In this document: in pieces, positions 3,295-21,215 of the stretch
How positions within the stretch are numbered: the stretch's first letter is position 1
Layout of the letters: every line of letters begins with the position of its first letter
Origin: an uncultured Gammaproteobacteria bacterium
GTDB lineage: Bacteria > Patescibacteriota > Patescibacteriia > Magasanikbacterales > GWA2-37-8
NCBI GenBank assembly: GCA_964634875.1
Contig: CAZWKA010000007.1
Span: forward strand, 1,649 to 65,648
Reading direction: 5' to 3'
DNA: 64,000 bases
The notes under the pieces: generated by a model
Databases searched by the model: none
Told to the model about the DNA's origin: nothing
The model's input: the letters and a program-made list of their open reading frames with translations, nothing else
Program-made: the position numbers and the translations under genes

Positions 3295-3318
3295 AGGGAG
3301 AAAATTAGATAGTAGGAA

Positions 3319-5199: not shown

Positions 5200-5263
5200 A
5201 CCTTCATTGGAACACTAGAGCATTAAAACACCAGAACAAAAGGGTGTTTTAATGTTTTCATGA

Positions 5264-5953: not shown

Positions 5954-5955
5954 AC

Positions 5956-6384
5956 CTAATTTTCAGCCTTATAATAACCACCCGTATTGACCATCAGTGA
6001 CAAATTACGGATACGCATAGCTGGGACTTGCTTCGAGACCGCTTCAACTGCCAGCTCGGCAGCAGGAACCATTTTGCGCAAATCATTCAACTCACCCGTA
6101 GTATAACTTTTATTCCACACTCGACGGCTCGGACGGCGGGCAGCTTGAAAAATATTGAGCAAAAAATAATGGAATGATTGGCCGTTAATTTTGACAAACG
6201 CTAAAATGATCGCAAAACCACCAATCAACGCCAGCGCAGCAATAAACAATGGCGTGTCGGCTAATTTGAAGACAATAAAAAGCAAGAGCCCAGCCACAAG
6301 CAGAATTACAAATTGGCGGGTCGTTATCGGACCAAAAATCTTGTCTTCAACATCAATAAATTGTGGAACGGTAAATTGATTCAT
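5956..6384 (-). CDS. PrgI-family small membrane protein (VirB3 analogue of Gram-positive conjugation systems)
   Basis: VPQFIDVEDKIFGPITTRQFVILLVAGLLLF matches the PrgI-family signature (..KIKEKFIFGLTKRQ..) followed by two TM helices. It sits immediately upstream of VirB4, as in Gram-positive T4SS loci. Confidence 0.6.
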   Translation of the reverse strand: MNQFTVPQFIDVEDKIFGPITTRQFVILLVAGLLLFIVFKLADTPLFIAALALIGGFAIILAFVKINGQSFHYFLLNIFQAARRPSRRVWNKSYTTGELNDLRKMVPAAELAVEAVSKQVPAMRIRNLSLMVNTGGYYKAEN

Positions 6385-6391
6385 GGTAGGG

Positions 6392-7531
6392 CTAGGTTAA
6401 CTCTTTTTCCATGGAAATAAGGGCGTTTATCTCGGCGATCTGGATTTTGTTCTTATCAACCAGGACAGCACTGAGCGGACGGTGCTCAGCCAAACCTTGG
6501 GTTAATGCTTCCATATACGCCAAATATAATGGCGAGGTCTGCCAGGCATGTAGAGCCTGCAAATAAAGCACGATCGATTCATCTCTCAGGTTAGTGAACT
6601 TTTCCTGTAGACGTTTAGCTGCTTCAGTAGGATTAGCAGCTAAACGACGAAAATCAGTTAAGTTAAAGCGGGCAATTTCATCAACCGGACCAACTTCGAG
6701 TGTCACCTGCGCAACATCACGGACTAAAGGTTTTACCACTGGTTGACTACCTAATTTAAGCGGTGCTTCCAGCGGGCGCGGCTGACGCGGAGCAGACCGG
6801 GTCATTACCGGCGCAGGAGAAGGAGGTGGATTTTTTAGGGGAACCCCCTCTTTTTTAAGAGCTATAAGATCTTTAATTTCTAGAGGAGCAGCTGTGGTGG
6901 CGCTCCCCATAAGGGCATCAAACTCTTTGGATGTTTTTTTTGGCAAAACTGCAGAGGGTTGATGTGTAGGGTGTTTGAAGGCATTAAAGGGCGTGCTGAT
7001 GGCCGGGAACTTGGCGGCCTGAACAATAGCAGGCTCAAGTGTTTTCTTGGGTGGCGGCGTGACTGACCCACCAATTTCGAGGTCAGGGACAACAATATTT
7101 TTGGCAGCAATAGTAAACGCTGACGCAGCTGTTTTGGCGGCGGTTGAGCCGTGACCATCGGCCAGCTGCAAAACTTGCTCTTTTTGTTCATCGTTTAAAC
7201 CAAGACCGCCTTCCGCTACCGGCCTCCCCAAAGCGTTTTCGGTTTCAGCGCGGCTGCGGACGTCTTTAAGATACAGCTGGATAATGCTTCGGAAACGATT
7301 TTGGTTGTCGGGCGAAGCAAGCTTGCCAACCTGTTTCATGATCGCTTCGACTTCTACCCCCCGACTGGCGCTGGCAAGCGGAGTTGCAGGAGTTGCAACA
7401 ACCGGGGCAGGTGTTGCAGCCACGGCTTCAGGATTTTTTTTGAGCGCCTGAAGTTCACCGAGGGTCATGCGAACCACCGTTCCATCGGCTTTTTTCACCG
7501 TAACCATGGGTTGTCCAGTAAGAGGCGCCAT
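6392..7531 (-). CDS. Hypothetical T4SS-associated protein with Pro/Ala/Thr-rich low-complexity segments
   Basis: 379-aa ORF in the operon. Repeats such as AATPAPVVATPATP. No recognisable catalytic motifs. Confidence 0.45.
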   Translation of the reverse strand: MAPLTGQPMVTVKKADGTVVRMTLGELQALKKNPEAVAATPAPVVATPATPLASASRGVEVEAIMKQVGKLASPDNQNRFRSIIQLYLKDVRSRAETENALGRPVAEGGLGLNDEQKEQVLQLADGHGSTAAKTAASAFTIAAKNIVVPDLEIGGSVTPPPKKTLEPAIVQAAKFPAISTPFNAFKHPTHQPSAVLPKKTSKEFDALMGSATTAAPLEIKDLIALKKEGVPLKNPPPSPAPVMTRSAPRQPRPLEAPLKLGSQPVVKPLVRDVAQVTLEVGPVDEIARFNLTDFRRLAANPTEAAKRLQEKFTNLRDESIVLYLQALHAWQTSPLYLAYMEALTQGLAEHRPLSAVLVDKNKIQIAEINALISMEKELT

Positions 7532-7532
7532 G

Positions 7533-8519
7533 CTATAGAGCTAAAAGTTCGTCATTCCAATGGAACTGCCCATCGGACTCATTAAAATAATAGAGATCAT
7601 TAATTTTTTCATCCCGGTATTCTTCAGCGAGGTTACTAAGGAGGTTAAAAACTGCTCCCGGGTCAAGAAACTGCCCAGTAGCATCCTTCGTAAAATTAGC
7701 TTCGACATTTTTCTTAATTTCAGCATACGAAATTTTTTCACGAACCGGTTCTGTCGCTGGTGCCGCAAGCGTTTCTGGGCTAAATTGGGGAGCTATGCCT
7801 GCCGATTCATCTGCCCTTGTTTCAAGGGCAGCGGCAAAATTTTCATACCGATCCGGATTAATGTACGCACTTACAACATAGGGAGCTTTTTCAGGCTCAA
7901 CCCCAACGAAAAAATTCACTAAATCAATAAAACGTTCAACCGTTTCATTAGGATTAGCAAAAAAATAGGCATCAAACAACGGGTCATCTTTAACAAAAAA
8001 GATGGTTTGGATCTTGGATGCTATTTCTGCAGCCTCGATAGAGGTAGCCTGCGGACGCTGCATGCGTTTAACCATTTCAACAACTTCCACAACTGTAACA
8101 TTTTTACCGGCCAACGTGCCGACGATTGCCTCTGATGTTAAGAAGGCATTTCGCATATCACTGTACCAACCGCCAACTTCTGCATCATCAGTCGTGCGTA
8201 ACCCAAGATAGTCAAGTAGTCGATAATGCACATCTACATCAAGTAAAAACGCCGTAGGAATCTGCCGTGCACAAGCAACCTCCACTACAGTTGAACCGCG
8301 GAGATTGGTCAACATTTTCCAGGTAAGATCGGTATACCAGCGAAATAAGCTATAAAAATACTTCCGGTCTTCAAGCGCAGACTTATCAGCAAAAAAATCA
8401 TAAAGCTCTTGCCAAGCAAGTTGCATTTTTTTAGGCTCCCGAGAAAGGCCGCGAAAATCTTCTTCGATCTTGGCGATTTCAGCTGGAGTGTTTTTAAATT
8501 GTGGAATGTTGAAGAACAT
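7533..8519 (-). CDS. Hypothetical T4SS-associated protein
   Basis: 328-aa ORF tightly packed between the VirB6-like gene and the 379-aa gene (the start of 6392..7531 lies 2 nt after its stop). Confidence 0.45.
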   Translation of the reverse strand: MFFNIPQFKNTPAEIAKIEEDFRGLSREPKKMQLAWQELYDFFADKSALEDRKYFYSLFRWYTDLTWKMLTNLRGSTVVEVACARQIPTAFLLDVDVHYRLLDYLGLRTTDDAEVGGWYSDMRNAFLTSEAIVGTLAGKNVTVVEVVEMVKRMQRPQATSIEAAEIASKIQTIFFVKDDPLFDAYFFANPNETVERFIDLVNFFVGVEPEKAPYVVSAYINPDRYENFAAALETRADESAGIAPQFSPETLAAPATEPVREKISYAEIKKNVEANFTKDATGQFLDPGAVFNLLSNLAEEYRDEKINDLYYFNESDGQFHWNDELLAL

Positions 8520-8531: not shown

Positions 8532-11342
8532 TTAAAGTTCGATCCTTCTTCCTTGTGGGTCTACATAATGGTCTGTGCCACCCTTTTGAGCATAAATTTC
8601 TTTTAACTTCGTACGCTTGAACAGTGTTTCAAGGCCAGCAGGATCTTTTGCTTTTGCAAGCATCTTAGAGAGCAGGCTCTCAATCTTGTCCTTTGCCATA
8701 TTAGCAAACGCATCGTTGAAATCCTCAATGTTTGTCTTATCGATAGAACTAACAATGTTAGCCGTTACATTACCAAACATGTTGGCAATACGATCTTGGG
8801 CGGCATCGCTCGAAATACTAATCTTTACCTGTCCATTAACTACCGCATTATCGACTGAGCCTCCAAAGCCCTGGATCTTAGTAGCTTTGGACTGCGCGAC
8901 AGACCATTCACGTTTACCACCGTGCCACTTGGCGTCACCGTTAACATCACTCATATCCGCAGCGTGGAAATTGCTTTCTCCGGTCTTAACATTAAAATCT
9001 TCTTTAAATAAGCCAGCCTTATTGACCGCACCATCATCAGCAGAAAAAGCTAAACCGGCAGTGAAGCTCTGCATGAAGCTGCCAAAATTCTTACCAAGAT
9101 TTTGCCTTAATTCTTCTAAGGCTGCATCAATTTCTGGCTTACTTTTACCTACCTGTCGCTGCAAAATAGAGGCAAGCTCATTTGCCTGATGCGCCGCAAC
9201 GTCATCAGCATCAGCGTCATGCTTCAGCGAGTTGCCTGACGCGTCAATCAGGGCAGTAAGTGTACCGTTATCGCCGAACATTGACCCGCGAGAACCGTTA
9301 AACGCCTGGAGCGAGGCCATGTCGGTAATTAAATTTTTAAGCTTACCTTGTTCTTTTTCAAAATTCGTATCACTTGGCGACAAGCCCGCAACAGCCGTCC
9401 GTTGGGCACGAATTTGATCACGTAAAAAGGCTACCTTCTGCATGGTACGATCAAAGTCAGAACTACCCGCCAAATCAATATCCTCTTTGGTATGTTTGGC
9501 AAGCACCTGTTCCTTGTAACGCGGGGTTTGATTGTTATCAGTAAGGTTCTTGTCTTTCGCCTCGGCAACCTGTAACTCTTCAGCACGGTCAAGTTTCTTT
9601 TTGATTTCCTCGGCATTCGCTTGGGCGGTAATAGCGGTATGCTCAAAATCCATGAAGGCCGCATCTTTCTTTTCGATCATCTCTGCTTCCTTTTTGGCAT
9701 ATTTTTCATCTTTTTTCTTTTCAGCCATTTTCTCAACAGCATGCTTTAGCACGCCGCTGCGAAGTTTTGCCCGACCACCGAGTAATTTGCTCGTACCAAA
9801 TGTTTCTTCTTCAATTTTTTCGTAATTTTCAGCTGTATCCTGCCAGTCTTCAACCTTTTTGGCTTTGCGGCGACTGCTTTCACCAATTAAAGGAATTTTC
9901 TTGAATGCAAAAGCAGCAACAGATGCTCCAACCCCAGCCAGACCCTTTTTACCGCGAGCCCAATCCTCTGCTCCTTTAGACCAATCACTGCGTTTTTTAC
10001 CCAAAGCTGCCCAACCGGCACGAGAGATACTAGCAATATTCTTACCCATATTAACCCAATTCTCACCACCAATGACCGGGGCTTTCATGGCCGCAAATTT
10101 TGCGGCTGCAGTTCCAGCATCAACCGCATGTCCACCAGCCCAGCGAGCTGCATTGATGCCGCTGGCGTATTTACCAACAGTCTTGCCAAAGTCGATCGCA
10201 CCACCAACCGCCGACGCCCCTGCTCCACCTAGTTCTTCGGCAGCTTTGGCACCAACCATGAGCATACCGATCGCAATGGCAAAACTGGCCATCTTTGGCC
10301 AGGACATAATGGCTGAAATACCGGCAGCCTGTACGGCAGAACCAATACCATCAGTACCAGCTGAGCCCTCCAGGCGATTCGGTGCCGTGGAATTATCGGA
10401 AATATCTTGGCTTATATTCCCATTACCCAAGGTTACAAATGACAACCAAACAAAAAATAATAAAACTGGCCCCGTAATGACGTTAGCCGTAAACTCACTC
10501 CACCACTTACCGGCGTATGATTCCGTTTGCGGCAAGATACTGAGCACAAAGGCCAAAGGCGATAACACAATCAAGACCCACAAGACAACCATGCGGGCGA
10601 GCAGCATATACAGAAAAACGAACATGACACCCATAACCATGGCAGCAAAGGTAACACCACCAACAGCGGCAATGAATTGCTCGGTAGCCGTAAACTTTGT
10701 CGGCGAAGTTCCCGCGGATAATTCCAATATCTGATTTAATTGGAAGGCGTTGATAAGGTTACCACCAGCAGTAGCAGCAATACCGTTGACGAAGGTGGTC
10801 ATGACAACCTGAGCAACATCAATGATCAAACCGCAGATAGTACGGCTAAAGTTGACCAAGATAGCGGCAAAAATAAATTTGCCAAGCAGTTTTTTCCATT
10901 CGTACTGTTCAAGACCAAGGATCGTTCCAAAAGCAATAATGAGTAAAATAACGACAAAAACCATGTTGGTAATATCACGAACCATTACCCAACCAACATT
11001 TACAGCTGCCGAATCGAGATAGCCATTATAGCCGCCCAAGGTGATAACGAAACTGAGGATAAAAACAGTTAGCCGGATAAATAAACCAGCGATGGCCAAG
11101 ATGATAGTTGCCAAGAGCTCCAACCAGAAAGCAGGCTCGATCAAGCGACCGATATCCGTTGCGGCATAGCTTGGCAGCGCAAGGACAGAACTGATAGCAA
11201 GGCCAACCACCGAACAAATCAAAAAAAGCGCAACAAACTTTCGTCTGTTACGAAGAAACGAACCGACCGTCTGAAGACACATGGAGACGCTCGCGAGCAC
11301 AAGAAAAAGTTCAAGATCAAAACTGAACGTAGTATACCACAT
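8532..11342 (-). CDS. VirB6/TrbL-like polytopic membrane protein with a long (about 500 aa) hydrophilic, coiled-coil-rich C-terminal extension
   Basis: About 8-10 predicted TM helices in the first roughly 430 aa. Lys/Glu-rich coiled-coil stretch (KKKDEKYAKKEAEMIEKK). Position within the T4SS operon. Confidence 0.5.
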   Translation of the reverse strand: MWYTTFSFDLELFLVLASVSMCLQTVGSFLRNRRKFVALFLICSVVGLAISSVLALPSYAATDIGRLIEPAFWLELLATIILAIAGLFIRLTVFILSFVITLGGYNGYLDSAAVNVGWVMVRDITNMVFVVILLIIAFGTILGLEQYEWKKLLGKFIFAAILVNFSRTICGLIIDVAQVVMTTFVNGIAATAGGNLINAFQLNQILELSAGTSPTKFTATEQFIAAVGGVTFAAMVMGVMFVFLYMLLARMVVLWVLIVLSPLAFVLSILPQTESYAGKWWSEFTANVITGPVLLFFVWLSFVTLGNGNISQDISDNSTAPNRLEGSAGTDGIGSAVQAAGISAIMSWPKMASFAIAIGMLMVGAKAAEELGGAGASAVGGAIDFGKTVGKYASGINAARWAGGHAVDAGTAAAKFAAMKAPVIGGENWVNMGKNIASISRAGWAALGKKRSDWSKGAEDWARGKKGLAGVGASVAAFAFKKIPLIGESSRRKAKKVEDWQDTAENYEKIEEETFGTSKLLGGRAKLRSGVLKHAVEKMAEKKKDEKYAKKEAEMIEKKDAAFMDFEHTAITAQANAEEIKKKLDRAEELQVAEAKDKNLTDNNQTPRYKEQVLAKHTKEDIDLAGSSDFDRTMQKVAFLRDQIRAQRTAVAGLSPSDTNFEKEQGKLKNLITDMASLQAFNGSRGSMFGDNGTLTALIDASGNSLKHDADADDVAAHQANELASILQRQVGKSKPEIDAALEELRQNLGKNFGSFMQSFTAGLAFSADDGAVNKAGLFKEDFNVKTGESNFHAADMSDVNGDAKWHGGKREWSVAQSKATKIQGFGGSVDNAVVNGQVKISISSDAAQDRIANMFGNVTANIVSSIDKTNIEDFNDAFANMAKDKIESLLSKMLAKAKDPAGLETLFKRTKLKEIYAQKGGTDHYVDPQGRRIEL

Positions 11343-11823: not shown

Positions 11824-11898
11824 AAAGGAGCTTTTCCGTGAAACGCTGAGGTGCATGCCGCGCCTCAGCAAGTTACCGGCCTCGGAAGGAGCATGACC

Positions 11899-12459
11899 AT
11901 GAGCACGAAGAAGGAGTCTCTGTGCAAGCCGACCCCCCACAACCACCTCACGCTCGCGGCCCTCATCGCCGCACTCACCCTCAGCAGCGCCTGCGGCGGA
12001 GCCGTGGGGAAGGACGACCTGAACTCGGCCACGGCCAACACGCAGACCTCGATCGCCGACGTCGCCAAGGAGTGCGCCGACTCGAAGAAGGCGAGCGAGG
12101 AGACGAAGAAGGCCTGCGACGACCAGATCAAGAGCTGCGAGGACACGAAGCGGGTCTGCGAGATGCCGACCCCCAGCGCCATGACGACGGCGCGCTGCCA
12201 GGCGCTGATGCCGGCAGCCAACCGCACGTTCACCAAGTGTGGCGCCAAGATGGAGAGCGGCAAGCTGTGGCTCGACGTGGCCAACAAGTCGAACCCCGCC
12301 CTCAAGGACGTGGACTGCGTGGTCAACCTGACCGGCATCCTCGGGGAGGGCACGATCCCCATCAACAACCTCCACGTGACGCAGTGGAGCGACGCGGGCG
12401 ACCTGATCCTCAAGTTCTGGATCGATCACCCGCTCGGACGGACGATCTGCGAGCCCTAG
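11899..12459 (+). CDS. Cysteine-rich lipoprotein, hypothetical. GC-rich foreign cassette.
   Basis: GGAAGGAG sits 7 nt upstream of the ATG. Signal peptide LTLAALIAALTLSSAC with Cys right after the lipobox. 11 Cys in the mature part. The antisense and other-frame ORFs 11794..12486 (-) and 11922..12581 (+) are GC-composition artefacts. Confidence 0.65.
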   Translation: MSTKKESLCKPTPHNHLTLAALIAALTLSSACGGAVGKDDLNSATANTQTSIADVAKECADSKKASEETKKACDDQIKSCEDTKRVCEMPTPSAMTTARCQALMPAANRTFTKCGAKMESGKLWLDVANKSNPALKDVDCVVNLTGILGEGTIPINNLHVTQWSDAGDLILKFWIDHPLGRTICEP

Positions 12460-12555: not shown

Positions 12556-12597
12556 AAAAAACAAAACCCTCTATAAAATAGAGGGTTTTGTTTTTTA
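12556..12597. terminator. Bidirectional rho-independent terminator
   Basis: aaaaccctctataaaatagagggtttt with T-runs on both sides. It ends both the plus-strand cassette gene and the minus-strand giant gene. Confidence 0.6.
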
Positions 12598-12618: not shown

Positions 12619-15600
12619 TTACTCTGCAGGAGCAGCAATGATAATTTTATTGGCAAAAGGAGTAAAGGCAAAATCATCTACCGCCGCACTACACTCTTTA
12701 ACACCGTTAGATCGAGGATCATTGTAGCACCCTGAAGCACGACCCGCACAATTTCCATTACACCACCCCCAATTATCAACCACCTGTACTTTTGGCACAA
12801 ATTCACAACAGCCATTTGGGAAGTTCGCAGGGCATTGGGCAGCCTCTTTAAAGCCGACACTATCGCGTGAACAGAAGTACACATGATCGAACAAGCGATA
12901 ATTAGCCACACAGGTTTTATCAATAATCCGACCAAAACTTTGGGCTGAGGCCTCTGGAGCACACACTGGCTCAATAACACAATCAGAATTTACTCTACAG
13001 ACAGTCTTAAGGTCGCGTGGAACTACACACTTACCAACCGGAGTCTGAGGATCATTTGGCAAGAGACAGGTTGCACCAGGTTTACCATTAGGCCCACCCG
13101 TGCAATCAGCATTTGTAGTACAAGAGATATCTTGAAGGTCTTTTACGACACAGTGTTTTTCGGCACCAACCGTTTCACATGTTGGCTGCTGATAGCCACG
13201 GTAGTTACGACCAGCTTGTTGGCCTGGCAAGGTGCTTTTACCGTCGCCCCAAAACACATTAACTTCACGGATAGGCATCTGATCGGCGTCCGCGGCAACG
13301 AAAAATTGCAGATCAACTTTGGCGCTTGGGGTGCGGCGGATAATATCTCTTCCTTGTGGTTCATTATCAATAGTCATGCCTGGCTTAGTCTGGTCTTCGA
13401 GACAGTGTCCTTCGGCATTACAAGCACCAACAGGGAACACAACTGGTGGACGAGGTTTTTTCTGCCAATCACCCGTAGCCGTTTTATCATTAAACGCACC
13501 TTTCGTGACCGCAAAAACGTTGCTGGAGTTGAATGTATACAAAGTATTAACCCGCGCAAATAACGAACCAAACGAATTGTTAGAATCAGCTGAGCTTGCC
13601 CCAACCTTTGTAGCATTTTTAACAGTCCCATCAGCCAACACCTGTAAACAACTTGATTTTGGGCCTCCAAGACATGCATATGGCGAACCAGGAACATACG
13701 TCGGCACTGCAGCATTACCTTTTACGATACTTAAAGGATACTTACAATTTTCTAGCCCAAACGATGGGAAACAGGTTGTCTCACTCTCTTTAGGCTCAAA
13801 CGGAGTCATGATAAGCGGCTGATTTTGATTCATGCTAGCTATTCCCAAACTACCAAAAGGTGCAATCGGGGTGGTGTACATATAGCCTAGACCGGCGAAA
13901 CCGAAATCACCATTGTAACTACTTGAAATACTATAGAGCGACTGCTTCCAAAGACGATTAGTCCAAGGGATCGATCGATCATCGGACGAACCTACTGTAT
14001 CGACTTCGGCTATACGAGTACAAATCTGTCGAAGCTTAAAACTCACTTTGTATTTGATAAAGTGGTCATCCCCGGCATCATACGAACCATGATAAAGGGT
14101 TCTGTAACCAAGGAAGGTTCCGTCATTATCAAACGTAAAGAGGATGGCATGCCAATTACCTTCGCCTGCGTGGGTGTCGGCAATAGTAGCGTTGGTGACA
14201 CTAGGGTTCCAAAACCCAAGTTCACCAAGATTTGTGCCTCGATTAGTTATGCCGCTTGGAACAAAAATGTTGCCATTCAACATTCCACAGTCACCCTTTG
14301 GCCCAGTATTTGCACATTCTGCAGAAAAGCTGCCATCATCCCCCATACAAATGTTTCCCTCTTGGCTTACAAACTCTCCATGTGTTCCATCGCGCTTCTT
14401 ACTACCGTACATGTAAATGAATTCGTTCGGCTTGCCCATGTAATGGCCAGTAAGTGCGCGTCCCGGGCCTTGCATATGATCTTTTGTCTGGTAAACAGTC
14501 TGAGGCTGGTCAAGGGGCGTAGCAGCATTTGGCCAAATCTCAAAAATGGCACCATTTGGATCTTCACTGTCCCGAATATCCTGGGTATGGATGATTATTT
14601 TCTCAATATCAGATTTACGCAATTTGCGCTCGTCTGCTGTTGCTTGATAAAAATCACGGTTGGTTGAGCCTACAAAGGTAGCAGCATTCCTAAATGGACT
14701 ATTCCAGTCACACGAGGTACCAGATTGGCCATACATATCCGACTGCTGGATTTTCTTGTTGTCATAAAATTCATAGGTACCAAACAACAAATCTTGGCCA
14801 TAAAAATACCTGCTCGCTGGATACGGCATGGCCGGATCCATTTTATCACCACCGGCATTGTTGGCGTCCAAGCAGTACTCACGACCAGACGCCAACCCCA
14901 AGTCAGCAGGAGATTGGTAACCGGCATCAGGATGCTGCTCGTTAATGTCGTTTGACCCGATAATACTGTCAACAGGGAACCAAGACAAGCAAGGGAAAAC
15001 ACCCTGCGCAGCGTTCACGTTGCGGGAGCTATCCGGTTCCAGACAAAAACCTTTCCAGCCTAAGAGCTGTTCGTTCCGACGTTGTTTTTGGCATGTTCCA
15101 GGCGTCTTGCCGGTCATCTGACAACCTTCATCATCGCTACAAGCTGAACCTTCTTTAAAACCACCCTGACAAATACCTTGGGGGACTTTTAAGTTACTTC
15201 CTGGTACCGCAGCAGCATCAAGCGTATTTGGTTTCTGGTAGTTCCAATACTTAGTGAGCGCACCATCACCGTAGGTAACCTTGGTATAGTTACAATCACA
15301 CGCCCCGGATACACTTGGGTCAGAGGTAAAACCATTGGTTTCACTACAGAACTTGGCATTACTAAACTGAGAAATTGCTTTTCCAATCACCGTCGTATTA
15401 GGGAACGGCGAATCCTTTTCAGGATACAAACGGCAGGCTTCAGCCGGAGACTTCTTAACCACCTCGCCAATCGTGCCATCAGGGTTTTGTAAACAGAGGC
15501 CATTCAAACAAATACCAATTCCGCCTTGACCACAAACCTTATCATTTTCTTTACACGATGCGTCGTTCGGTGCTGCGGCGTCTACACAATTCGTATTACC

Positions 15601-18600
15601 GCATGGTATTCTTCGCACCAAACGGAACAAGGGATTAGCGCTTTGGCCGCTAATATTTACCTGAGCCAGCTCTTCAACTGGGAAGATACCTGGGATAGAC
15701 CAGCCGGTAAAATCCATACCCGCCCAACTTGTATCACGCTGGGTATATAGTTCAGGAGTTAATACCTGGCCAGAATATTCCCCACCACCTTCAACCCAAC
15801 TGGCGCAATTGGTTATATTACTTTCGGCTTGGTTTTCTGGGGCACGATCACAGCGGCCGATATCATCACAGACTATTTTCCATTTACCGGTTTTATCATC
15901 CCAAACACGATGGCTAGAACGGCACTGGAGCCATTCGCCACAGGTACGATCGTGGTCAACTTTAATAATGATATTAGCATCCGCTGGATTAGCAGTAGAG
16001 CCGTCAACCGGTTTGACGAGGGCATCCTGAGACTCCTGGCTGGCAGCATACGTCGCCTTGCTTGACCAGTATTTATTTGGATTATCAGGTTCGTCAAACA
16101 ACGCACAGCCTTTCTTCTGACTCACCGTACCATTACATTCCGCTCCATCAATCTTTTCGTTTTTAATATAATAGTAAGAACGATCATTATCATTGTGATC
16201 AACAAATTGAGTACATTTATCTTGGGCAGCCGGACACTCACCAACAAAGTTTTGATATTTAGCGCCATCACCATACGACCAGAGGCCATAATTATTGCCC
16301 TGCTGGACGTAATCTGCATAACACGGCTGCGCTCCTACACCCTGGCAGGTCGCACCAGTGCCACAATCAGCATTGGCAGAACAGAATTTGCCGCTGTTGT
16401 TGCTACAGATACCAACCCCTTTCCAGAACCAGCCACTAGATTTTACACCCTTTACGTTTACATCAGCCTGGTATGTACAAATCTTCTGACCGGTAACCAG
16501 CGGATCTTTAAAATATGAATCACCCGTTGCACTGCCGAACGCCGAACAACCTACTGCTTCTTTCTGGCAAAGTGTTGTTTCATACGCGGCCGGATCGTTT
16601 TTAACCAAAGCCGTGGTGTATTGGAGACCCGTTGGGGTTGATTTCTGGACACCCGCAAATGTACAACCAAGATCAGCAACATTACAGGAAGCAGCCTGGT
16701 TAGCAACGAGATACACAGGCGTTGTCGCTGGAGTATCAGCTGGTACATAGACGGTTGATTTTACAAAACTGCCTGCTCCGGCAACCTGGATAATCTCACT
16801 GGCCTCATGGCCGCTGATATTGACATAACACCCTGACTGTCCGACAGGAATCTGACACGAAACCGTATCATTGCCAAGTTGGATTTCAACTTTTGTTCCG
16901 CCGGTGCCGACAAGCCAAACATTGAAGGCTTTAGGACCAGCGTCGGCAGGAGTATTTTGGGTATCAAACAAGGCCGTACAACCAATCGCACCTTCACGGC
17001 AAAGGTAGTTAAAACCTGTCAAAGCAAAAGTCTTATTGCTCGGGTCTTTATACTGCATACAACCCAAAGCCTCGCCAGGCAAATTGTCATTCACGTTACT
17101 GTCACAAACCGGATCCACTTTAAGACTGTTCTTAACAAGATAAATATAATCAGTAACCTCGACGAGGCGGATGTTATCGAGATATAATTTGGCGTTGCCC
17201 TGATTTTTGAAAACCAATTGGCCTAGTGTCCCGGCTCCACCATATTCGATCGGCCCCAAGCGATAATAATTCCAGGTATCCCCCACCCCAACTGCACCAA
17301 AATCTTTGGAGTAATTACCCTCGGTCGAAGCCAGGCTGACAGTTAAGGACTGAGCGTCACCCTTTGCCCAGAACGTAAGGTCGTAACTCTTACTCGGGAC
17401 CACATTAATGTCGCGCGTCAGAGCCGCTGCTCCAAGGTAGCCCAAAGAATGCTCGCCAACGCGGGTAGATTCGCTCGAAAGTTGCACGGCAGCTGGTTTC
17501 CACGGGGTCAAAACAGGAGCAGTCGTACCTTCAAAAGTGTCATTAAATACTTCCTTAATATTGTTACCGGCATTCCCTTTATAAGCACGACACGTGTTGG
17601 CCGACGCTTGGCAAGATTTACTGGTGCCCGCTGTATTTTGAACACCATCTGGCAAACCGTAGTAGAAACAAGAACCGTTCTGGTACTCACCACCCTGCAA
17701 ACAGAGTTGACATTGGTTATTGTTCCAAAAACCCTTCTTAGTAGCACACGTAGCCTGATCATATGATGTCGGCAAGAGCTCGCTGTTATTTAAACGGTAC
17801 GGTGTACACGAGTTAGAAACCGGGATGGTTTTGGCGAGTAAACGGTAGTAAACATTACCCTCATCATCGTTAAACTGTCGGCAGTCTGGGTCTGCTTTGC
17901 CGCTCTTATAGAGGGCCTCACTGCACTGGCGGGCATAATTATCGGCATCACTCTCTGTGCGATAAAAATACTTTGGTCCACCTGTCTCATCTTTAACCAA
18001 GGTAAAGACTTTTAATTGGTAACCACCGACCGTAGAACCCTCGTAGGTAATAAAGTTTTTCTGAACATTTACGTCTGGTGTGGCGCAAGGGCGGAGATAT
18101 GAATAATGTTCGACATTTTCTACCTCACCAAGTGTCGTGCTAAGGTTGGTAAAACTGCTGCAACTTTCTTCTTGGGCACTGCAGGAAGAACCAGAAGCAG
18201 GAATTATATATGCAACATCCTGGCCAAGCGAATAATTACTTGGCATTTCGCGATAACTGGCATAGCCGACACATTTTGCATCACATTGGTCATTCCAGAC
18301 AATTTGTTTATCGACCACCTCAGCTGCTTTAAACCGGCCAGGAATTTTGCTGCCGCCCTGGGCTGAAGTGTACCAATTGCAATTTACTTCATCCGCAATA
18401 CAAGCACCGGCATAATTACTACATTGTGCCTTTGGTGTAATCCTGGCGAGATCAGCTGTCGTGTTGGCCCAATCAATTTTTCGGGTACTTGGATCACTGT
18501 CATAACAACCTAAATAGTCCGGAGCTTTTTTGAGATACAGACTGTTCTGATTATTTGTTGCACCAGCGATCTTAAAGGCAGAGCAACCAGCTGAATTAGC

Positions 18601-20556
18601 GCTACAGGAGGTAGAGACTTTATTATTGAAGAAAGCACCGTTATTTACATATCCAACAGCACTATCAGGGCCAGCTGGATCCTGCCAGTTGCCTGCACTA
18701 TCTTGCGACAAGCTATACGTAGTACAGCCGACATTATCTTTTGTACAAACACTGGTGTCGAGGCTGCGGTAAACATAAGCCCGCTGCGCACCGCTGGCAT
18801 CTACGAATGAGCGGCAGGTACGGAATTGTGCATCACAGCTGTCCGCATTAAAGCGCCAGGTATTTTTCTCGCGCGCACAGTAACCGTAACTACTGCAACT
18901 ACCATCGCTATTATAAGCGACACAAGTTGACAGGTCAGCACAGTCTTCGAGACGGTCAGGAGCATCGGAACTGAGCAAGTTAGCGCTAAAACCGAGGGCG
19001 TTACAGCGGGCGGCAGGAGCCTTGATTACCCAATCTGGATCGATGAGGTGGCAGAAAGGTTTGGTAATAGGGTCATACGTAACACCGACGATCTTACCCT
19101 GCGGATCCTTAATATAATTACAATCATTAAAGCCTTTCACTACTTGGCCGAGCGTCCAAGGCTGGTCAGGATCGCTTTTAGCGGCTGCAAGCTCAAACCC
19201 AAGCGGAATGATTCGGGCTTGGCGAAGGACTTTCAGGTTTGAATAGCAATAGGCATTCAAATAACAATTCTTATCAGAATTATCTTCGGCACGGCTTGGC
19301 GGGATAAGCTTAAATTCACCATGCAGCCACCCCTTGTCAATTGCTTCCTGGATTGTCGTTGGATTACCGTTGCCAATTTCTTGTGCTGCCTGCACCAAAC
19401 CAGCGTCTGCGCGACAGTTGTAGAGGCCAGCCGCATCCGGACAGCTACTTAGCTGACCCAGGATGTCATATTCATTAACTGTATTAGTACGGACAGCTAA
19501 GAAACCACTGAAAAGCTGTTCAGCCTGACGGCGACCACTTGTAACGCCGCTATCGCTAAAGCTTGTGACCGCGCTGTTGATTGAGGCGCAACTTTCGCCA
19601 CCAACTCCACCAACACACAAACCAAATGGCAACACGCCTTTTTGTTGGAAATTTTTAAGTACTGTTCCAGCCAAAGTGCTGAGGAAGAAATTTGCCAGGG
19701 CACCTGGAAGATTTTTATAGTTGCCGGAATTAATAGCCGCGGTGATCTGGTCGCCACTCTTATCGACCTGGCGGGCATTTCCGGTAGCCTTAAACTCTTC
19801 TGCAATTAATGGGGCAGGAGTTTGGATATCACCAGAGATATTGGTTTTTTTATCAACAAAACCCTGGTTAGCGATACGTTCGGAATCTGCGGCACCAACT
19901 GCTCTCGCAGCTTGCTGGCTAATCTTAGAGGAAGCGGCAAGCTGTATACCAAGTCCAGTCTCATCGATCTGGAAGGCAGAATTAAACTGCTGCTCGATGG
20001 AACCGCCTACCGAACTGAACTTGCTTCTCCAGGCCTCTGCACTCCAATTTTTTTGAAAATCCGAAAAAGTACATGCTGGCTTGCGGGTAGGATCCCCCGT
20101 TCCACCACTCGGCAAATTAACACGGATACCGACCTTCATTGCTAAATCAAGCTGTGGATCAGGAATGCTACACAAGTTAAAACCAGCTCCTTTACTTAAT
20201 TCTTCGATACCATGCCCAAGCGCATCATTACCAACATTTTTGAGGTAATCACCAAAACTTTTGGTCTGAGCAAATGGATTTTGGCCCTTGCCTCCAGAGG
20301 CAAGCCAGACAGCCGAATCATAAGCAACTTTACGCAAGACATACGACACAACCGTACCAGCCGCCGCTTGGACAGCTACTTTAAGGCCTTCCAAAATTTC
20401 ATCTTTGACTTTAAAAGTCGTAGCCACCACGTCTGTTGTTACTACAACAGGGATAGTCGCTTTGGCCGTCCCAGGGAAACCAAATGACCCAACCACACTG
20501 ACAAAAGCAACCACCGCAAGAATACCGGCTAAACCTATTTTTTTAAATATAGACAT
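12619..20556 (-). CDS. Giant (2645 aa) secreted or cell-surface cysteine-rich protein, N-terminally anchored
   Basis: Single uninterrupted ORF. N-terminal signal/anchor MSIFKKIGLAGILAVVAFVSVVGSFGFPGTAKA. Over 150 Cys, Gly/Asn/Ser/Thr-rich, no cytoplasmic-type motifs. Co-oriented directly upstream of the T4SS-like genes. Confidence 0.7.
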   Translation of the reverse strand: MSIFKKIGLAGILAVVAFVSVVGSFGFPGTAKATIPVVVTTDVVATTFKVKDEILEGLKVAVQAAAGTVVSYVLRKVAYDSAVWLASGGKGQNPFAQTKSFGDYLKNVGNDALGHGIEELSKGAGFNLCSIPDPQLDLAMKVGIRVNLPSGGTGDPTRKPACTFSDFQKNWSAEAWRSKFSSVGGSIEQQFNSAFQIDETGLGIQLAASSKISQQAARAVGAADSERIANQGFVDKKTNISGDIQTPAPLIAEEFKATGNARQVDKSGDQITAAINSGNYKNLPGALANFFLSTLAGTVLKNFQQKGVLPFGLCVGGVGGESCASINSAVTSFSDSGVTSGRRQAEQLFSGFLAVRTNTVNEYDILGQLSSCPDAAGLYNCRADAGLVQAAQEIGNGNPTTIQEAIDKGWLHGEFKLIPPSRAEDNSDKNCYLNAYCYSNLKVLRQARIIPLGFELAAAKSDPDQPWTLGQVVKGFNDCNYIKDPQGKIVGVTYDPITKPFCHLIDPDWVIKAPAARCNALGFSANLLSSDAPDRLEDCADLSTCVAYNSDGSCSSYGYCAREKNTWRFNADSCDAQFRTCRSFVDASGAQRAYVYRSLDTSVCTKDNVGCTTYSLSQDSAGNWQDPAGPDSAVGYVNNGAFFNNKVSTSCSANSAGCSAFKIAGATNNQNSLYLKKAPDYLGCYDSDPSTRKIDWANTTADLARITPKAQCSNYAGACIADEVNCNWYTSAQGGSKIPGRFKAAEVVDKQIVWNDQCDAKCVGYASYREMPSNYSLGQDVAYIIPASGSSCSAQEESCSSFTNLSTTLGEVENVEHYSYLRPCATPDVNVQKNFITYEGSTVGGYQLKVFTLVKDETGGPKYFYRTESDADNYARQCSEALYKSGKADPDCRQFNDDEGNVYYRLLAKTIPVSNSCTPYRLNNSELLPTSYDQATCATKKGFWNNNQCQLCLQGGEYQNGSCFYYGLPDGVQNTAGTSKSCQASANTCRAYKGNAGNNIKEVFNDTFEGTTAPVLTPWKPAAVQLSSESTRVGEHSLGYLGAAALTRDINVVPSKSYDLTFWAKGDAQSLTVSLASTEGNYSKDFGAVGVGDTWNYYRLGPIEYGGAGTLGQLVFKNQGNAKLYLDNIRLVEVTDYIYLVKNSLKVDPVCDSNVNDNLPGEALGCMQYKDPSNKTFALTGFNYLCREGAIGCTALFDTQNTPADAGPKAFNVWLVGTGGTKVEIQLGNDTVSCQIPVGQSGCYVNISGHEASEIIQVAGAGSFVKSTVYVPADTPATTPVYLVANQAASCNVADLGCTFAGVQKSTPTGLQYTTALVKNDPAAYETTLCQKEAVGCSAFGSATGDSYFKDPLVTGQKICTYQADVNVKGVKSSGWFWKGVGICSNNSGKFCSANADCGTGATCQGVGAQPCYADYVQQGNNYGLWSYGDGAKYQNFVGECPAAQDKCTQFVDHNDNDRSYYYIKNEKIDGAECNGTVSQKKGCALFDEPDNPNKYWSSKATYAASQESQDALVKPVDGSTANPADANIIIKVDHDRTCGEWLQCRSSHRVWDDKTGKWKIVCDDIGRCDRAPENQAESNITNCASWVEGGGEYSGQVLTPELYTQRDTSWAGMDFTGWSIPGIFPVEELAQVNISGQSANPLFRLVRRIPCGNTNCVDAAAPNDASCKENDKVCGQGGIGICLNGLCLQNPDGTIGEVVKKSPAEACRLYPEKDSPFPNTTVIGKAISQFSNAKFCSETNGFTSDPSVSGACDCNYTKVTYGDGALTKYWNYQKPNTLDAAAVPGSNLKVPQGICQGGFKEGSACSDDEGCQMTGKTPGTCQKQRRNEQLLGWKGFCLEPDSSRNVNAAQGVFPCLSWFPVDSIIGSNDINEQHPDAGYQSPADLGLASGREYCLDANNAGGDKMDPAMPYPASRYFYGQDLLFGTYEFYDNKKIQQSDMYGQSGTSCDWNSPFRNAATFVGSTNRDFYQATADERKLRKSDIEKIIIHTQDIRDSEDPNGAIFEIWPNAATPLDQPQTVYQTKDHMQGPGRALTGHYMGKPNEFIYMYGSKKRDGTHGEFVSQEGNICMGDDGSFSAECANTGPKGDCGMLNGNIFVPSGITNRGTNLGELGFWNPSVTNATIADTHAGEGNWHAILFTFDNDGTFLGYRTLYHGSYDAGDDHFIKYKVSFKLRQICTRIAEVDTVGSSDDRSIPWTNRLWKQSLYSISSSYNGDFGFAGLGYMYTTPIAPFGSLGIASMNQNQPLIMTPFEPKESETTCFPSFGLENCKYPLSIVKGNAAVPTYVPGSPYACLGGPKSSCLQVLADGTVKNATKVGASSADSNNSFGSLFARVNTLYTFNSSNVFAVTKGAFNDKTATGDWQKKPRPPVVFPVGACNAEGHCLEDQTKPGMTIDNEPQGRDIIRRTPSAKVDLQFFVAADADQMPIREVNVFWGDGKSTLPGQQAGRNYRGYQQPTCETVGAEKHCVVKDLQDISCTTNADCTGGPNGKPGATCLLPNDPQTPVGKCVVPRDLKTVCRVNSDCVIEPVCAPEASAQSFGRIIDKTCVANYRLFDHVYFCSRDSVGFKEAAQCPANFPNGCCEFVPKVQVVDNWGWCNGNCAGRASGCYNDPRSNGVKECSAAVDDFAFTPFANKIIIAAPAE

Positions 20557-20579: not shown

Positions 20580-21215
20580 TTAAGGTTGTGTGCTGGTTGA
20601 ACTCGCTTCAAGAGCTGCAAAGGCATCGAGCGTGCTTGACGAACTCATTGCCTCCGCTACTGTGGCGAGCAAGTCTTTGTCGGAAATTTTTTTCAAGTCT
20701 TCTTCATTGACGCCCGCCTGGATTAACATGGCACGGATTTGAGCGGGATCCTGCAGGGCAGCAGCAAAAGCAGCGGGTGTCAGACCATCAGGCTGTTCGG
20801 GCTCAGTAGGGATCGTAGAAGAAACAACACCCGATGAAGAAACGGTGGTTGCATCATTACATTGCCCTTTGGGGCAAAGCGCTAATCCTTTGGCCACAAC
20901 CTCTTTATCACTTAAGCCATAGCTAAAAGTGTCATACAAATACGGACTCGTGCTATACACATAGAGCTCGTCAAAATCGTTAAGTTCATCGTGATCCGTA
21001 TCGCGGTACCGTAACGCATCGGGAGTATTAACATCGTTTTTTAATGTCGTTGGTACTGTGCTTGTGAGAGCAAAAGGTGCGTAGAGCGTGTTGCGGATCT
21101 GTAAGAAACCTAAACCAACAGCAAGAACAGCAAAAACAAGCAGGAGGGAAAACCCAATTCTCTGCTCGCGAGTAAAGCTTCCGGTACGACTAAAATTCTC
21201 TGGCGCTTCCACCAT
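20580..21215 (-). CDS. Hypothetical membrane-anchored protein (N-terminal TM helix) upstream of the giant protein gene
   Basis: TM segment IGFSLLLVFAVLAVGLGFL. Its stop lies 24 nt upstream of the giant ORF start. Confidence 0.45.
   Translation of the reverse strand: MVEAPENFSRTGSFTREQRIGFSLLLVFAVLAVGLGFLQIRNTLYAPFALTSTVPTTLKNDVNTPDALRYRDTDHDELNDFDELYVYSTSPYLYDTFSYGLSDKEVVAKGLALCPKGQCNDATTVSSSGVVSSTIPTEPEQPDGLTPAAFAAALQDPAQIRAMLIQAGVNEEDLKKISDKDLLATVAEAMSSSSTLDAFAALEASSTSTQP

What the first reader, a model, noticed from the sequence alone, without database searches (positions are those of the whole stretch)
12619..20556. 2645-aa cysteine-rich giant extracellular protein encoded as one uninterrupted ORF
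An 7.9 kb ORF has an N-terminal signal/anchor, more than 150 cysteines and G/N/S/T-rich composition. No cytoplasmic enzyme motifs are visible. It is co-transcribed upstream of the T4SS-like genes. Its function is unknown. Plausible roles are an adhesin, an S-layer-like component or a pilus-like component of the secretion apparatus. The density and regular spacing of Cys pairs suggest many disulfide-stabilised repeat domains.
Basis: seen in the sequence. Interest (0 to 1): 0.6.

Follow-up and report, generated by a model that had tools for sequence, protein, structure and literature searches.

The report
Giant disulfide-rich surface protein, Patescibacteria
This 7.9-kb gene encodes a real, widely conserved but undescribed 2,645-residue secreted protein of ultra-small Patescibacteria, held together by about 55 disulfide bonds, carrying a sugar-binding module and a fast-evolving domain, and encoded next to their enigmatic type IV secretion system, so it is most likely a host-recognition adhesin.

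Summary
The ORF (12619-20556, minus strand, 2645 aa) is real and is a single gene. Full-length homologues of 2,500-3,300 aa exist in hundreds of Patescibacteria (Magasanikbacteria/ABY1) genomes, with about 1,470 cluster representatives, all unannotated. It has 110 cysteines, not more than 150. Cysteine is the most conserved residue, cysteines are gained and lost as neighbouring pairs, and 85% of family members have an even count, so disulfides are strongly indicated.

The layout is: Sec signal peptide, conserved N-terminal domain, cysteine-stapled beta-rich body with nine C-x6-C hairpin motifs, a CBM4/16/22-like jelly-roll (aa ~1000-1140), a hypervariable domain (aa 1890-2375), and a conserved cysteine-rich C-terminus. 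No toxin, RHS, LPXTG, SLH or pilin features were found.

It forms a tight gene pair with a small membrane-anchored TSP3-repeat protein (63/64 loci). It lies upstream of a Gram-positive-type T4SS cluster (VirB6-like gene in 38/44 loci). In this window a strong terminator and a convergent high-GC lipoprotein gene separate it from the T4SS genes, so co-transcription is not supported.

Best reading: a host-glycan-binding, host-specificity adhesin at the epibiont-host interface, possibly working with the T4SS. This function is inferred, not shown.

The parts
12619..20556 (-). Giant ORF, 2645 aa (mature form about 281 kDa, pI 5.1)
   Evidence: ORF and translation. Full-length homologues at 32-65% identity overall. 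Mass and pI.
20458..20556 (-). Sec-type signal peptide, aa 1-33 (MSIFKK...GTAKA|T)
   Evidence: Only hydropathy peak above 1.4. The AxA site is conserved as PAxAQ in the family consensus. No class III pilin motif and no lipobox.
18997..20457 (-). Conserved N-terminal domain, aa 34-520 (motif RKVAYDSAVWLASGGKGQ). It always sits directly after the signal peptide.
   Evidence: 47% mean column identity. A profile finds 1471 representatives, and the domain sits at aa ~35-520 in all of the top 150. AF2 predicts helices at low confidence for aa 30-350 and a confident alpha/beta part at aa 359-509. No PDB sequence match.
17560..18996 (-). Cysteine-stapled beta-rich region I, aa 521-999 (28 Cys; C-x6-C-[STRNA]-x-[FYL] hairpin motifs at aa 574, 604, 651, 719, 792, 982)
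   Evidence: Cys positions and motif instances. Nearly all Cys are invariant.
17137..17559 (-). CBM4/9/16/22-like beta-jelly-roll, aa ~1000-1140 (no Cys)
   Evidence: Pfam CBM_4_9 E 1.2e-3, below the curated cut-off. Family profile against PDB: laminarinase CBM4 E 1e-4, plus CBM16 and CBM22 hits. AF2 pLDDT 77-89. Foldseek 2zex E 8.6e-8 TM 0.66; 4xup TM 0.69.
14890..17136 (-). Cysteine-stapled region II, aa 1141-1889 (41 Cys; hairpin motifs at aa 1186, 1330 and 1441, plus a similar C-x6-C hairpin at aa 1291; small 4-Cys knots at aa 1384-1412, 1668-1688, 1796-1822)
   Evidence: Relatives P0088 and P0089 carry NHL beta-propeller insertions after aa ~1092 and ~1404-1437.
13432..14889 (-). Hypervariable beta-rich region, aa 1890-2375
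   Evidence: 8-25% identity and many indels, against 35-63% elsewhere. The closest homologue is 79.5% identical in the conserved part but 30.6% here. No Pfam family in 61 variants. No word-sharing relative scored E <= 0.001 in 5.8 billion proteins. AF2 block-mean pLDDT is mostly 73-92 over aa ~1966-2065 and ~2095-2205. GC3 is not elevated.
12622..13431 (-). Conserved cysteine-rich C-terminal domain, aa 2376-2645 (motifs FFxxADxNQMPIR, VDWGDG, PKVQVxDNWGWCNGxC)
   Evidence: Alignment. No Pfam or PDB match; the PKD resemblance is not supported.
12556..12596 (-). Intrinsic-terminator-like hairpin with a U-run about 23 nt after the stop codon. It is palindromic, so probably bidirectional.
   Evidence: Sequence. 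RNA fold -23.5 kcal/mol, z -6.2, 0 of 200 shuffles fold as well.
20580..21215 (-). Upstream partner gene (211 aa): N-terminal TM anchor plus two TSP3-like DTDxDGLxDxDE calcium-binding-type repeats plus a CxxGxC motif. Its stop codon is 23 nt before the giant's ATG.
   Evidence: Translation. Present immediately upstream in 63/64 loci. Consensus sequence. Faint TSP3_bac hits in homologues. Spacing.
11893..12459 (+). Convergent orphan lipoprotein ORF on a 66% GC island (GC3 0.96; lipobox LTLSSAC)
   Evidence: No homologue found. Analogous high-GC lipoprotein genes occupy the same gap in many loci.
8532..11342 (-). 936-aa polytopic membrane protein with a long hydrophilic C-terminal half. VirB6-like by position and topology only.
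   Evidence: Translation. No family hit. A homologue lies downstream of the giant gene in 38/44 loci.
2701..8519 (-). T4SS-like gene set: two unknown genes (328 aa and 379 aa), PrgI/VirB3-like (5956-6384), TrsD/VirB4-N-like (5264-5953), VirB4 ATPase (3319-5199), weak VirB8-like (2701-3294)
   Evidence: NCBIfam conju_CD1110 E 4.5e-105, TrsD E 9.5e-9. Pfam PrgI E 2.5e-11, P-loop_TraG E 1e-28, VirB8 E 0.015. Synteny.

Best explanation
The gene encodes a Sec-exported, roughly 281-kDa extracellular protein of an uncultivated Patescibacterium (ABY1/Magasanikbacteria lineage). It belongs to a large, unannotated family.

Shown here:
- After signal-peptide cleavage, a conserved N-terminal domain is followed by a long beta-rich body. 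The body is cross-braced by about 55 mostly local disulfides, including nine C-x6-C hairpin staples and several small cysteine knots.
- The body carries a CBM4/16/22-type jelly-roll.
- Near the distal end there is a folded domain that evolves far faster than the rest. It is capped by a conserved cysteine-rich C-terminal domain.
- The gene is paired with a small membrane-anchored TSP3-repeat protein.
- In most relatives it sits just upstream of the chromosomal, relaxase-less, Gram-positive-type T4SS.

Inferred:
- The protein stands on the cell surface, held by its N-terminal domain, possibly through the TSP3 partner.
- It binds host-cell envelope glycans with the CBM.
- It recognises particular hosts through the hypervariable domain.
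- It thereby provides the contact that the epibiont, and perhaps its T4SS, needs. Functionally it would be the counterpart of the surface adhesins that accompany Gram-positive conjugative T4SSs, without being related to them.
For: Single real gene: collinear homologues of 2,500-3,300 aa. About 1,470 representatives match at E <= 1e-3 and 997 at E <= 1e-30.

Export: one N-terminal hydrophobic segment and a conserved AxA site.

Disulfides:
- Cys is the most conserved residue (mean 0.88, against W 0.67). 85 of 110 Cys are at least 90% conserved.
- Variable Cys appear and disappear as adjacent pairs (phi 0.67-1.0).
- 85% of 198 full-length members have an even Cys count.
- There is only one CxxC, so metal clusters are unlikely.

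Glycan binding: CBM fold.

Specificity domain: 79.5% versus 30.6% identity in the closest pair, indel-rich, confidently folded, with no relative found by word search. Ligand-binding NHL propellers are inserted in some members.

Genomic linkage: the TSP3 partner is present in 63/64 loci, the VirB6-like gene in 38/44, and PrgI/TrsD/VirB4 in 31/44 within 10 kb.

Literature:
- The Patescibacterial T4SS is MPF-FATA-like and mostly lacks a relaxase, and 'no adhesins such as PrgB were detected' (PMC12102498).
- In Saccharibacteria the T4SS and glycan-binding surface proteins are essential for epibiotic growth (PMC10633639).
- Giant surface proteins are proposed host-attachment factors in CPR (PMC8080830).
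Against: - There is no experimental or expression evidence. Adhesion and host specificity are inferred from architecture alone.
- CBM ligand-binding residues were not examined, and the Pfam score is below the curated cut-off.
- Linkage to the T4SS is not universal: 6 of 44 loci have none within 10 kb.
- In this window a terminator and a convergent gene separate the giant gene from the T4SS genes.
- The gene also keeps synteny with housekeeping genes (RF1, Sua5, KsgA, GroEL). Adjacency may therefore reflect conserved gene order rather than function.
- No anchoring motif was identified.
- AF2 confidence is low for aa 30-350 and 520-790.
- The C-terminal 1,200 aa match no known fold.
- No Dsb/VKOR-type oxidase was seen in the window.
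Confidence: 0.5

Rival explanations
1. It is a structural envelope or coat protein (S-layer-like or fibrous surface layer). It would be a housekeeping component of the Magasanikbacteria cell surface, and its variable region would simply be a poorly constrained, exposed face.
For: Very widespread, and seemingly one conserved locus per genome. Embedded among housekeeping genes. Acidic pI of 5.1. Still present where the T4SS is not adjacent.
Against: No SLH or other known S-layer anchoring domain. From general knowledge, 4% Cys and about 55 disulfides are atypical for S-layer proteins, which are normally Cys-poor. A CBM and inserted NHL propellers point to ligand binding. The variable part is a discrete folded domain, not diffuse surface variation.
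Confidence: 0.2
2. It is an extracellular structural part of the T4SS itself. It could be a disulfide-stapled stalk or conduit that replaces a pilus and bridges to the host, or alternatively a T4SS substrate.
For: Conserved position just upstream of the VirB6-like, PrgI, TrsD and VirB4 genes. From general knowledge, Gram-positive-type T4SSs lack pilins. The function of the Patescibacterial T4SS is unknown (PMC11665869), and this T4SS mostly lacks a relaxase (PMC12102498).
Against: It carries its own Sec signal peptide, so it does not need the T4SS for export. It has a separate transcription unit here. The T4SS is absent within 10 kb in 6/44 loci, whereas the TSP3 partner is nearly always present. 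No similarity to VirB2, VirB5, VirB9 or VirB10 was found.
Confidence: 0.13
3. It is a polymorphic toxin or effector. The conserved body would deliver a variable toxic module (aa 1890-2375), and the variable small lipoprotein encoded immediately downstream would be the immunity protein.
For: A hypervariable near-C-terminal region. Next to it lies a hypervariable, mutually unrelated small lipoprotein gene in many loci.
Against: No toxin, RHS, pre-toxin or peptidase family in the window protein or in 61 variable regions. The extreme C-terminus is conserved rather than variable. The lipoprotein genes are mostly on the opposite strand and compositionally foreign (GC3 up to 0.96), while the giant's variable region is not.
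Confidence: 0.07
4. It is a host-envelope-degrading or nutrient-harvesting enzyme. An unrecognised catalytic domain would be targeted by the CBM.
For: From general knowledge, CBM4/16/22 modules normally accompany glycoside hydrolases. The PDB relatives found here are CBMs of laminarinase, xylanase and endoglucanase. Giant genes in predatory Omnitrophota are implicated in cell-wall degradation (bioRxiv 10.1101/2023.11.21.568195).
Against: No catalytic family was detected by Pfam, NCBIfam, PDB profile search or Foldseek.
Confidence: 0.08

Closest known systems
PrgB/aggregation-substance-type surface adhesins encoded with Gram-positive conjugative (MPF-FATA) T4SSs
   Same: Sec-exported surface protein encoded beside VirB4/PrgI/TrsD-type T4SS genes. 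Proposed role is establishing cell-cell contact for the machine.
   Different: No sequence or domain homology and no LPXTG anchor. About twice the size, with roughly 55 disulfides. Chromosomal, with no relaxase or coupling protein among the window genes examined. Separate transcription unit here. PMC12102498 reports no PrgB-like adhesins in Patescibacteria.
Giant surface proteins of the CPR predator Vampirococcus lugosii (PMC8080830) and the glycan-binding adhesins essential in Saccharibacteria (SEML1_0890, SEML1_0891, SEML1_0315; PMC10633639)
   Same: Very large or glycan-binding envelope proteins of ultra-small epibionts, thought to recognise and hold the host.
   Different: Those proteins are built from recognised modules (WD40, PKD, DUF11, integrin, FN3, VCBS, dockerin). 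This family has only a CBM-like fold, is cysteine-stapled, and has conserved synteny with a T4SS.
Omnitrophota giant genes next to secretion systems (bioRxiv 10.1101/2023.11.21.568195)
   Same: A giant ORF with a conserved secretion-system gene neighbourhood in a nanobacterial lineage.
   Different: Different phylum. The neighbouring genes there are type II/type IV-secretion-like and pilus-assembly genes rather than a VirB4-type T4SS. Those proteins are implicated in cell-wall degradation.
CBM4/CBM9/CBM16/CBM22 carbohydrate-binding modules (Pfam CBM_4_9)
   Same: Beta-jelly-roll fold: TM 0.66-0.69 to 2zex and 4xup, with about 18-26% identity.
   Different: Embedded in a non-enzymatic giant protein. 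The Pfam score is below the gathering threshold. The ligand and binding residues are unknown.

Membership tests
Patescibacterial MPF-FATA-like T4SS locus (context, not the giant itself) | VirB4 ATPase of the monoderm type plus PrgI/VirB3 and TrsD nearby; no relaxase or coupling protein | tested here: met
   conju_CD1110 E 4.5e-105 (score 352.6, cut-off 325); TrsD E 9.5e-9; PrgI E 2.5e-11. No T4CP or relaxase family was found among the window ORFs scanned.
PrgB-type Gram-positive T4SS adhesin | LPXTG sortase anchor and adhesin/Ig-like domains homologous to PrgB | tested here: not met
   No LPXTG motif. No Pfam or NCBIfam hit.
CBM_4_9 / CBM4-16-22 jelly-roll superfamily (domain aa ~1000-1140) | Beta-jelly-roll fold with sequence-profile similarity | tested here: met
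   Foldseek E 8.6e-8, TM 0.66-0.69. Profile against PDB E 1e-4. Pfam E 1.2e-3, 19.7 bits against a 25.9-bit cut-off, so sub-threshold by sequence.
CBM_4_9 / CBM4-16-22 jelly-roll superfamily | Demonstrable carbohydrate-binding cleft residues or ligand | not testable with these tools
No binding data.
RHS/YD-repeat or other polymorphic toxins | YD repeats or RHS core, a variable extreme C-terminal toxin domain, and a co-oriented immunity gene | tested here: not met
   No YD motifs. No toxin families. The C-terminus is conserved.
S-layer proteins | SLH or other known cell-wall anchoring module | tested here: not met
   No SLH or other anchoring hit. The Cys content is 4.2%; that S-layer proteins are normally Cys-poor rests on general knowledge.
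Type IV pilins / sortase pilins (pilus-like component) | Class III signal peptide (G|FTLxE), or an LPXTG motif plus a pilin motif | tested here: not met
   Neither motif is present.
Diversity-generating retroelement target | Template/variable repeat pair and a nearby reverse transcriptase | tested here: not met
   No direct repeat involving the ORF. No RT among the window ORFs scanned.
PKD domain (C-terminal region) | A match to the PKD profile | tested here: not met
   WGDG...HxY...DNWGW resembles the PKD signature (recalled from memory; motifs seen). No PKD hit in any of 28 members, even at E <= 10.
Disulfide-rich extracellular protein | Conserved, paired cysteines with an even count in an exported protein | tested here: met
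   Chemical proof of disulfides is not possible with these tools.

The most novel reading that the evidence does not exclude
The giant protein is the missing extracellular arm of the Patescibacterial T4SS. In this reading it is a pilin-free, disulfide-stapled stalk held at the membrane by the TSP3 partner and/or the VirB6-like protein. It docks onto a specific host through the CBM and the hypervariable domain, and so positions the relaxase-less T4SS to tap the host cell. The recurrent, compositionally foreign orphan lipoprotein cassettes wedged between the giant gene and the T4SS genes would be exchanged (possibly host-derived) specificity or protection factors of the same apparatus.
Probability: 0.12. 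Interest if true: 0.85.

Novelty: new variant of a known kind. Interest (0 to 1): 0.58.

Why it matters
Patescibacteria make up a large share of bacterial diversity. They appear to live attached to other cells, yet the molecules that choose and hold the host are known only for a few Saccharibacteria. Their T4SS is essential in Saccharibacteria but its function is unknown, and a phylum-wide survey reported no associated adhesin.

This family is a concrete candidate for the host-recognition element in the ABY1/Magasanikbacteria lineage. It is conserved, very large and disulfide-braced, and it has a glycan-binding fold and a hypervariable domain encoded beside that T4SS.

It gives defined fragments (CBM, variable domain, N-terminal domain plus TSP3 partner) that could be expressed and used to fish for hosts of uncultivated lineages. 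It also adds about 2,500 residues of sequence with no recognisable fold to the list of targets for structural work.

Tried and rejected
Domain, fold and motif searches that found nothing:
- Tandem or dispersed DNA repeats, or a DGR template, in the ORF: none.
- PHROGs for the giant protein and five neighbouring ORFs: nothing.
- Pfam on 61 variable regions: nothing.
- PKD reading of the C-terminus: not supported.
- PDB profile searches of the N- and C-terminal domains: nothing.
- Foldseek of the aa 1446-2645 model against PDB and BFVD: no hit with E <= 0.001.
- LPXTG, class III signal, YD and CxxC motifs: absent, or a single occurrence for CxxC.

It was re-run with 28 and 27 accepted sequences, so the MSAs were shallow.

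Searches for relatives:
- Homologue search with the variable region alone: no hit.
- Metagenome scan for near-identical population variants, intended for a selection test: only relatives at 26-41% identity.

Lipoprotein side-track:
- Homologue search for the intervening lipoprotein: orphan.
- The idea that the giant's variable region shares the high-GC origin of the neighbouring lipoprotein cassettes: rejected, because its GC3 is slightly lower than the rest of the gene.

Literature searches for a prior description of this family: none found.
Full report
**Observation**

It runs from 12619 to 20556 on the minus strand, starts with ATG and encodes 2645 aa.

- Composition: G 9.6%, S 7.8%, N 6.6%, T 6.4% (30.4% together). 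There are 110 cysteines (4.16%), not more than 150.
- Export signal: the only strongly hydrophobic stretch is aa 1-30 (MSIFKKIGLAGILAVVAFVSVVGSFGF). It is followed by A-K-A|T, a site conserved as P-A-x-A-Q in relatives. This is a Sec signal peptide.
- Negative motif checks: no lipobox, class III pilin motif, LPXTG or YD repeats, and only one CxxC.
- The mature protein is about 281 kDa with pI 5.1.

**One gene, not an artefact**

- A search of 5.8 billion proteins returned 197 hits at E <= 1e-5. The 120 best listed were mostly 2,500-3,300 aa and collinear over the whole length. All were 'hypothetical' and came from Patescibacteria, mainly Magasanikbacteria.
- A scan of one genome per GTDB species found 318 stretches encoding relatives. 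66 of the fetched loci carry an uninterrupted frame of more than 2,000 aa.
- A profile of the N-terminal domain finds 1,471 cluster representatives (50% identity clusters) at E <= 1e-3 and 997 at E <= 1e-30. The domain sits at aa ~35-520 in every one of the best 150.

**Genomic setting**

The window is ordinary Patescibacterial chromosome. It carries GroEL, RF1, Sua5, KsgA, YidC, NusA, IF2, LeuRS, ComEC, Fpg, RNase J and others.

**Cysteines and disulfides**

- In a 61-sequence alignment, cysteine is the most conserved residue: mean conservation 0.88, against 0.67 for Trp and 0.49 for Gly. 85 of 110 Cys are at least 90% conserved.
- The few variable cysteines are gained and lost as sequence-adjacent pairs: 314/323, 937/949, 1668/1675, 2262/2271, 2295/2303, 2575/2583, 2603/2610, 2469/2485, with phi 0.67-1.0.
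- Among 198 full-length family members the Cys count ranges from 82 to 166, and 85% have an even number.
- Together with export and the lack of CxxC motifs, this is the evolutionary signature of about 55 mostly local disulfides.

**Internal organisation**

Consecutive Cys spacings of 6 and 7 residues occur 12 and 13 times, against about 3.6 expected each. The motif C-x6-C-[STRNA]-x-[FYL] occurs nine times between aa 574 and 1441. Only 0.65 copies are expected even with the Cys positions held fixed, and 0 of 2,000 shuffles reach nine. Leave-one-out HMM scores are 4.6-20 bits. There are also small four-cysteine knots at aa 1384-1412, 1668-1688, 1796-1822, 2469-2497 and 2510-2532. There are no DNA-level or tandem repeats. 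The 'many regularly spaced repeat domains' are therefore really an irregular series of disulfide-stapled hairpins and knots.

Conservation divides the protein into four parts:
- a conserved part, aa 1-1890 (29-63% identity to the window sequence per 50-residue block);
- within it, a distinct N-terminal domain, aa 34-520;
- a hypervariable, indel-rich part, aa 1890-2375 (8-25%);
- a conserved cysteine-rich C-terminus, aa 2376-2645.

**Recognisable domains**

- Pfam gives only a sub-threshold CBM_4_9 hit at aa 1003-1098 (E 1.2e-3). NCBIfam and PHROGs give nothing.
- A family profile against PDB sequences hits CBM4, CBM16 and CBM22 modules (best E 1e-4).
- AlphaFold2 on aa 30-1229 with a 28-sequence MSA gave mean pLDDT 55. 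It is confident for aa 359-509 and 789-1139.
- Foldseek places the latter region's jelly-roll with CBM16 and CBM22 (2zex E 8.6e-8, TM 0.66; 4xup TM 0.69). The CBM-type fold at aa ~1000-1140 is therefore supported by three independent routes.
- The aa 1446-2645 model (pLDDT 66.6, pTM 0.54, almost all beta) has no significant match in PDB or BFVD.
- The N- and C-terminal domain profiles match nothing in PDB.
- A PKD-like look of the C-terminus (FFxxAD...VDWGDG...HxY...DNWGW) is not borne out by hmmscan.
- Two relatives carry NHL beta-propellers inserted after aa ~1092 and ~1404-1437. The scaffold therefore accepts extra ligand-binding modules.

**The hypervariable domain**

- The closest relative (L005) is 79.5% identical over aa 400-1000 but only 30.6% over aa 1890-2375. 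Many relatives with 45-55% identity in the conserved part have no alignable variable region at all.
- No Pfam family occurs in 61 variants.
- A word-indexed search with this region alone finds nothing.
- JGI metagenomes hold no near-identical variant, so a population-level selection test could not be run.
- The region is predicted to be folded, with block-mean pLDDT mostly 73-92 in two beta-rich stretches. Its GC3 is slightly below the rest of the gene, so it is native sequence diverging fast rather than imported DNA.

**Neighbourhood**

- Immediately upstream, with its stop codon 23 nt before the ATG, lies a 211-aa protein. It has an N-terminal TM anchor, two TSP3-like DTDxDGLxDxDE repeats and a CxxGxC motif. 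It is present in 63 of 64 loci that have enough upstream sequence.
- RF1, Sua5 and KsgA precede it almost everywhere.
- Downstream on the same strand lie a 936-aa polytopic membrane protein (VirB6-like by position and topology only), two unknown genes, PrgI/VirB3-like, TrsD, a CD1110-type VirB4 ATPase, a weak VirB8-like protein and ComF.
- Of 44 loci with at least 9 kb downstream, 38 have the VirB6-like gene, 31 have PrgI/TrsD/VirB4 within reach, and 6 have none. These 6 include loci of the most divergent clade, such as L003.

**Co-transcription is not supported in this window**

About 23 nt after the stop codon there is a 19-bp hairpin (-23.5 kcal/mol, z -6.2) followed by a U-run. The 1.27-kb gap also contains a convergent ORF on a 66% GC island that encodes a lipoprotein-like protein.

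**Literature**

- A phylum-wide survey (PMC12102498) describes the Patescibacterial T4SS as MPF-FATA-like and mostly relaxase-less. It notes KsgA near virB4 generally and comF in ABY1 T4SS loci. It states that no adhesins such as PrgB were detected, and it does not mention this gene.
- In Saccharibacteria the T4SS and several glycan-binding surface proteins are essential for epibiotic growth (PMC10633639). The T4SS role is called completely unknown (PMC11665869).
- Giant surface proteins are proposed host-attachment factors in Vampirococcus (PMC8080830).
- Giant genes lie next to secretion systems in Omnitrophota (bioRxiv 10.1101/2023.11.21.568195).
- Five further searches found no description of this family.

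**Interpretation**

Shown:
- The protein is exported and disulfide-braced, and it belongs to a very large conserved family.
- It has a CBM-type fold and a discrete, fast-evolving folded domain.
- Its gene is paired with a membrane-anchored TSP3 protein and is usually next to the T4SS.

Inferred:
- It is a surface-standing adhesin. The CBM would bind host envelope glycans and the hypervariable domain would set host specificity.
- It would be a functional counterpart of Gram-positive T4SS adhesins, but it is not a member of that family (no LPXTG, no homology).
- I put about 0.5 on this reading. I put about 0.9 on the narrower statement that it is a secreted, disulfide-rich surface protein.

Rivals:
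- An S-layer-like coat (0.2).
- A structural arm or substrate of the T4SS (0.13).
- An unrecognised glycan-degrading enzyme (0.08).
- A polymorphic toxin with a lipoprotein immunity partner (0.07).

**Novelty and score**

The kind of thing (a giant host-contact surface protein of an ultra-small epibiont, next to a secretion system) is known. This family, its cysteine-stapled architecture and its T4SS/TSP3 synteny appear undescribed, so I rate it a new variant of a known kind. Interest is 0.58. It is a concrete candidate for the missing adhesin of an essential but unexplained machine. However, the function is inferred, the lineage is uncultivated, and most of the protein has no interpretable fold.

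Noticed in passing
window 11800-12500 (ORF 11893-12459 +); L005 18072-18635 (-) and 18963-19502 (+); also L001, L014, L018, L023, L034, L038, L043, L046, L050 and others, in the gap between the giant gene and the VirB6-like gene: This gap is a recurrent hotspot of compositionally foreign small lipoprotein genes. They are 51-69% GC with GC3 0.58-0.96, against a locus GC of 0.37-0.53. They lie mostly on the opposite strand and are mutually unrelated. The window's copy is an orphan with no homologue found. Repeated horizontal acquisition, possibly from high-GC hosts, or some local mutational process could explain this. It remains unexplained.
   Followed up: partly
window 48963-51748 and 54264-55451: Further high-GC3 genes sit in a ~47% GC genome. 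There are two lipoproteins (170 aa and 191 aa; GC3 0.71 and 0.85). There is a 417-aa cysteine-rich lipoprotein (GC3 0.93) with a duplicated GAACTDQAQCLSGIC-x-TGTC unit (DNA repeat D2, 50264-50498). There is also a 395-aa protein (GC3 0.84) with no Pfam hit. They look horizontally acquired.
   Followed up: partly
window 22729-22813, 26141-26225, 35445-35529, 46661-46745: Four copies of an ~85-nt A/T-rich palindromic element with a GTCGCC...GGCGAC core. The one inverted-repeat pair reported is between two of these copies. They may be terminators or a REP-like repeat family.
   Followed up: no
window 40880-44389 (-): The leucyl-tRNA synthetase is 1169 aa. It has a NUDIX domain (aa 388-510) and a HAD-like hydrolase domain (aa 648-803) inserted within it.
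   Followed up: no
window 5264-5953 and 3319-5199 (-): The VirB4 function is split. A separate 229-aa TrsD/TraC-like protein matches the N-terminal part of VirB4 models, and the 626-aa ATPase matches only the C-terminal part. This is consistent with the TrsD family reported for Patescibacteria.
   Followed up: partly
P0088 (aa ~1047-1940) and P0089 (aa ~1495-1690): Two family members carry NHL six-bladed beta-propeller insertions at two sites of the conserved body. This indicates modular acquisition of ligand-binding domains.
   Followed up: partly
L003 22654-23040: An Avd-like / 23S-rRNA-IVP four-helix-bundle gene lies about 4 kb downstream of the giant homologue in a Magasanikbacteria contig. 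No reverse transcriptase is listed nearby, so there is no evidence of a DGR.
   Followed up: no
Loci L005-L008, L010, L012-L014 and many others (record titles): Many GTDB records carrying this Patescibacteria-type locus are titled 'uncultured Gammaproteobacteria bacterium'. Gene content and synteny show that these labels are wrong or are placeholders. The 2015 'Kaiserbacteria' label of P0073/L079 is also doubtful, because its synteny is the Magasanikbacteria one.
   Followed up: partly
window 35537-36310 (-): An L,D-transpeptidase (YkuD) carries an N-terminal bacterial TSP3 repeat, the same type of repeat as in the giant's partner protein. TSP3 may be a common envelope-association module in this organism.
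   Followed up: no
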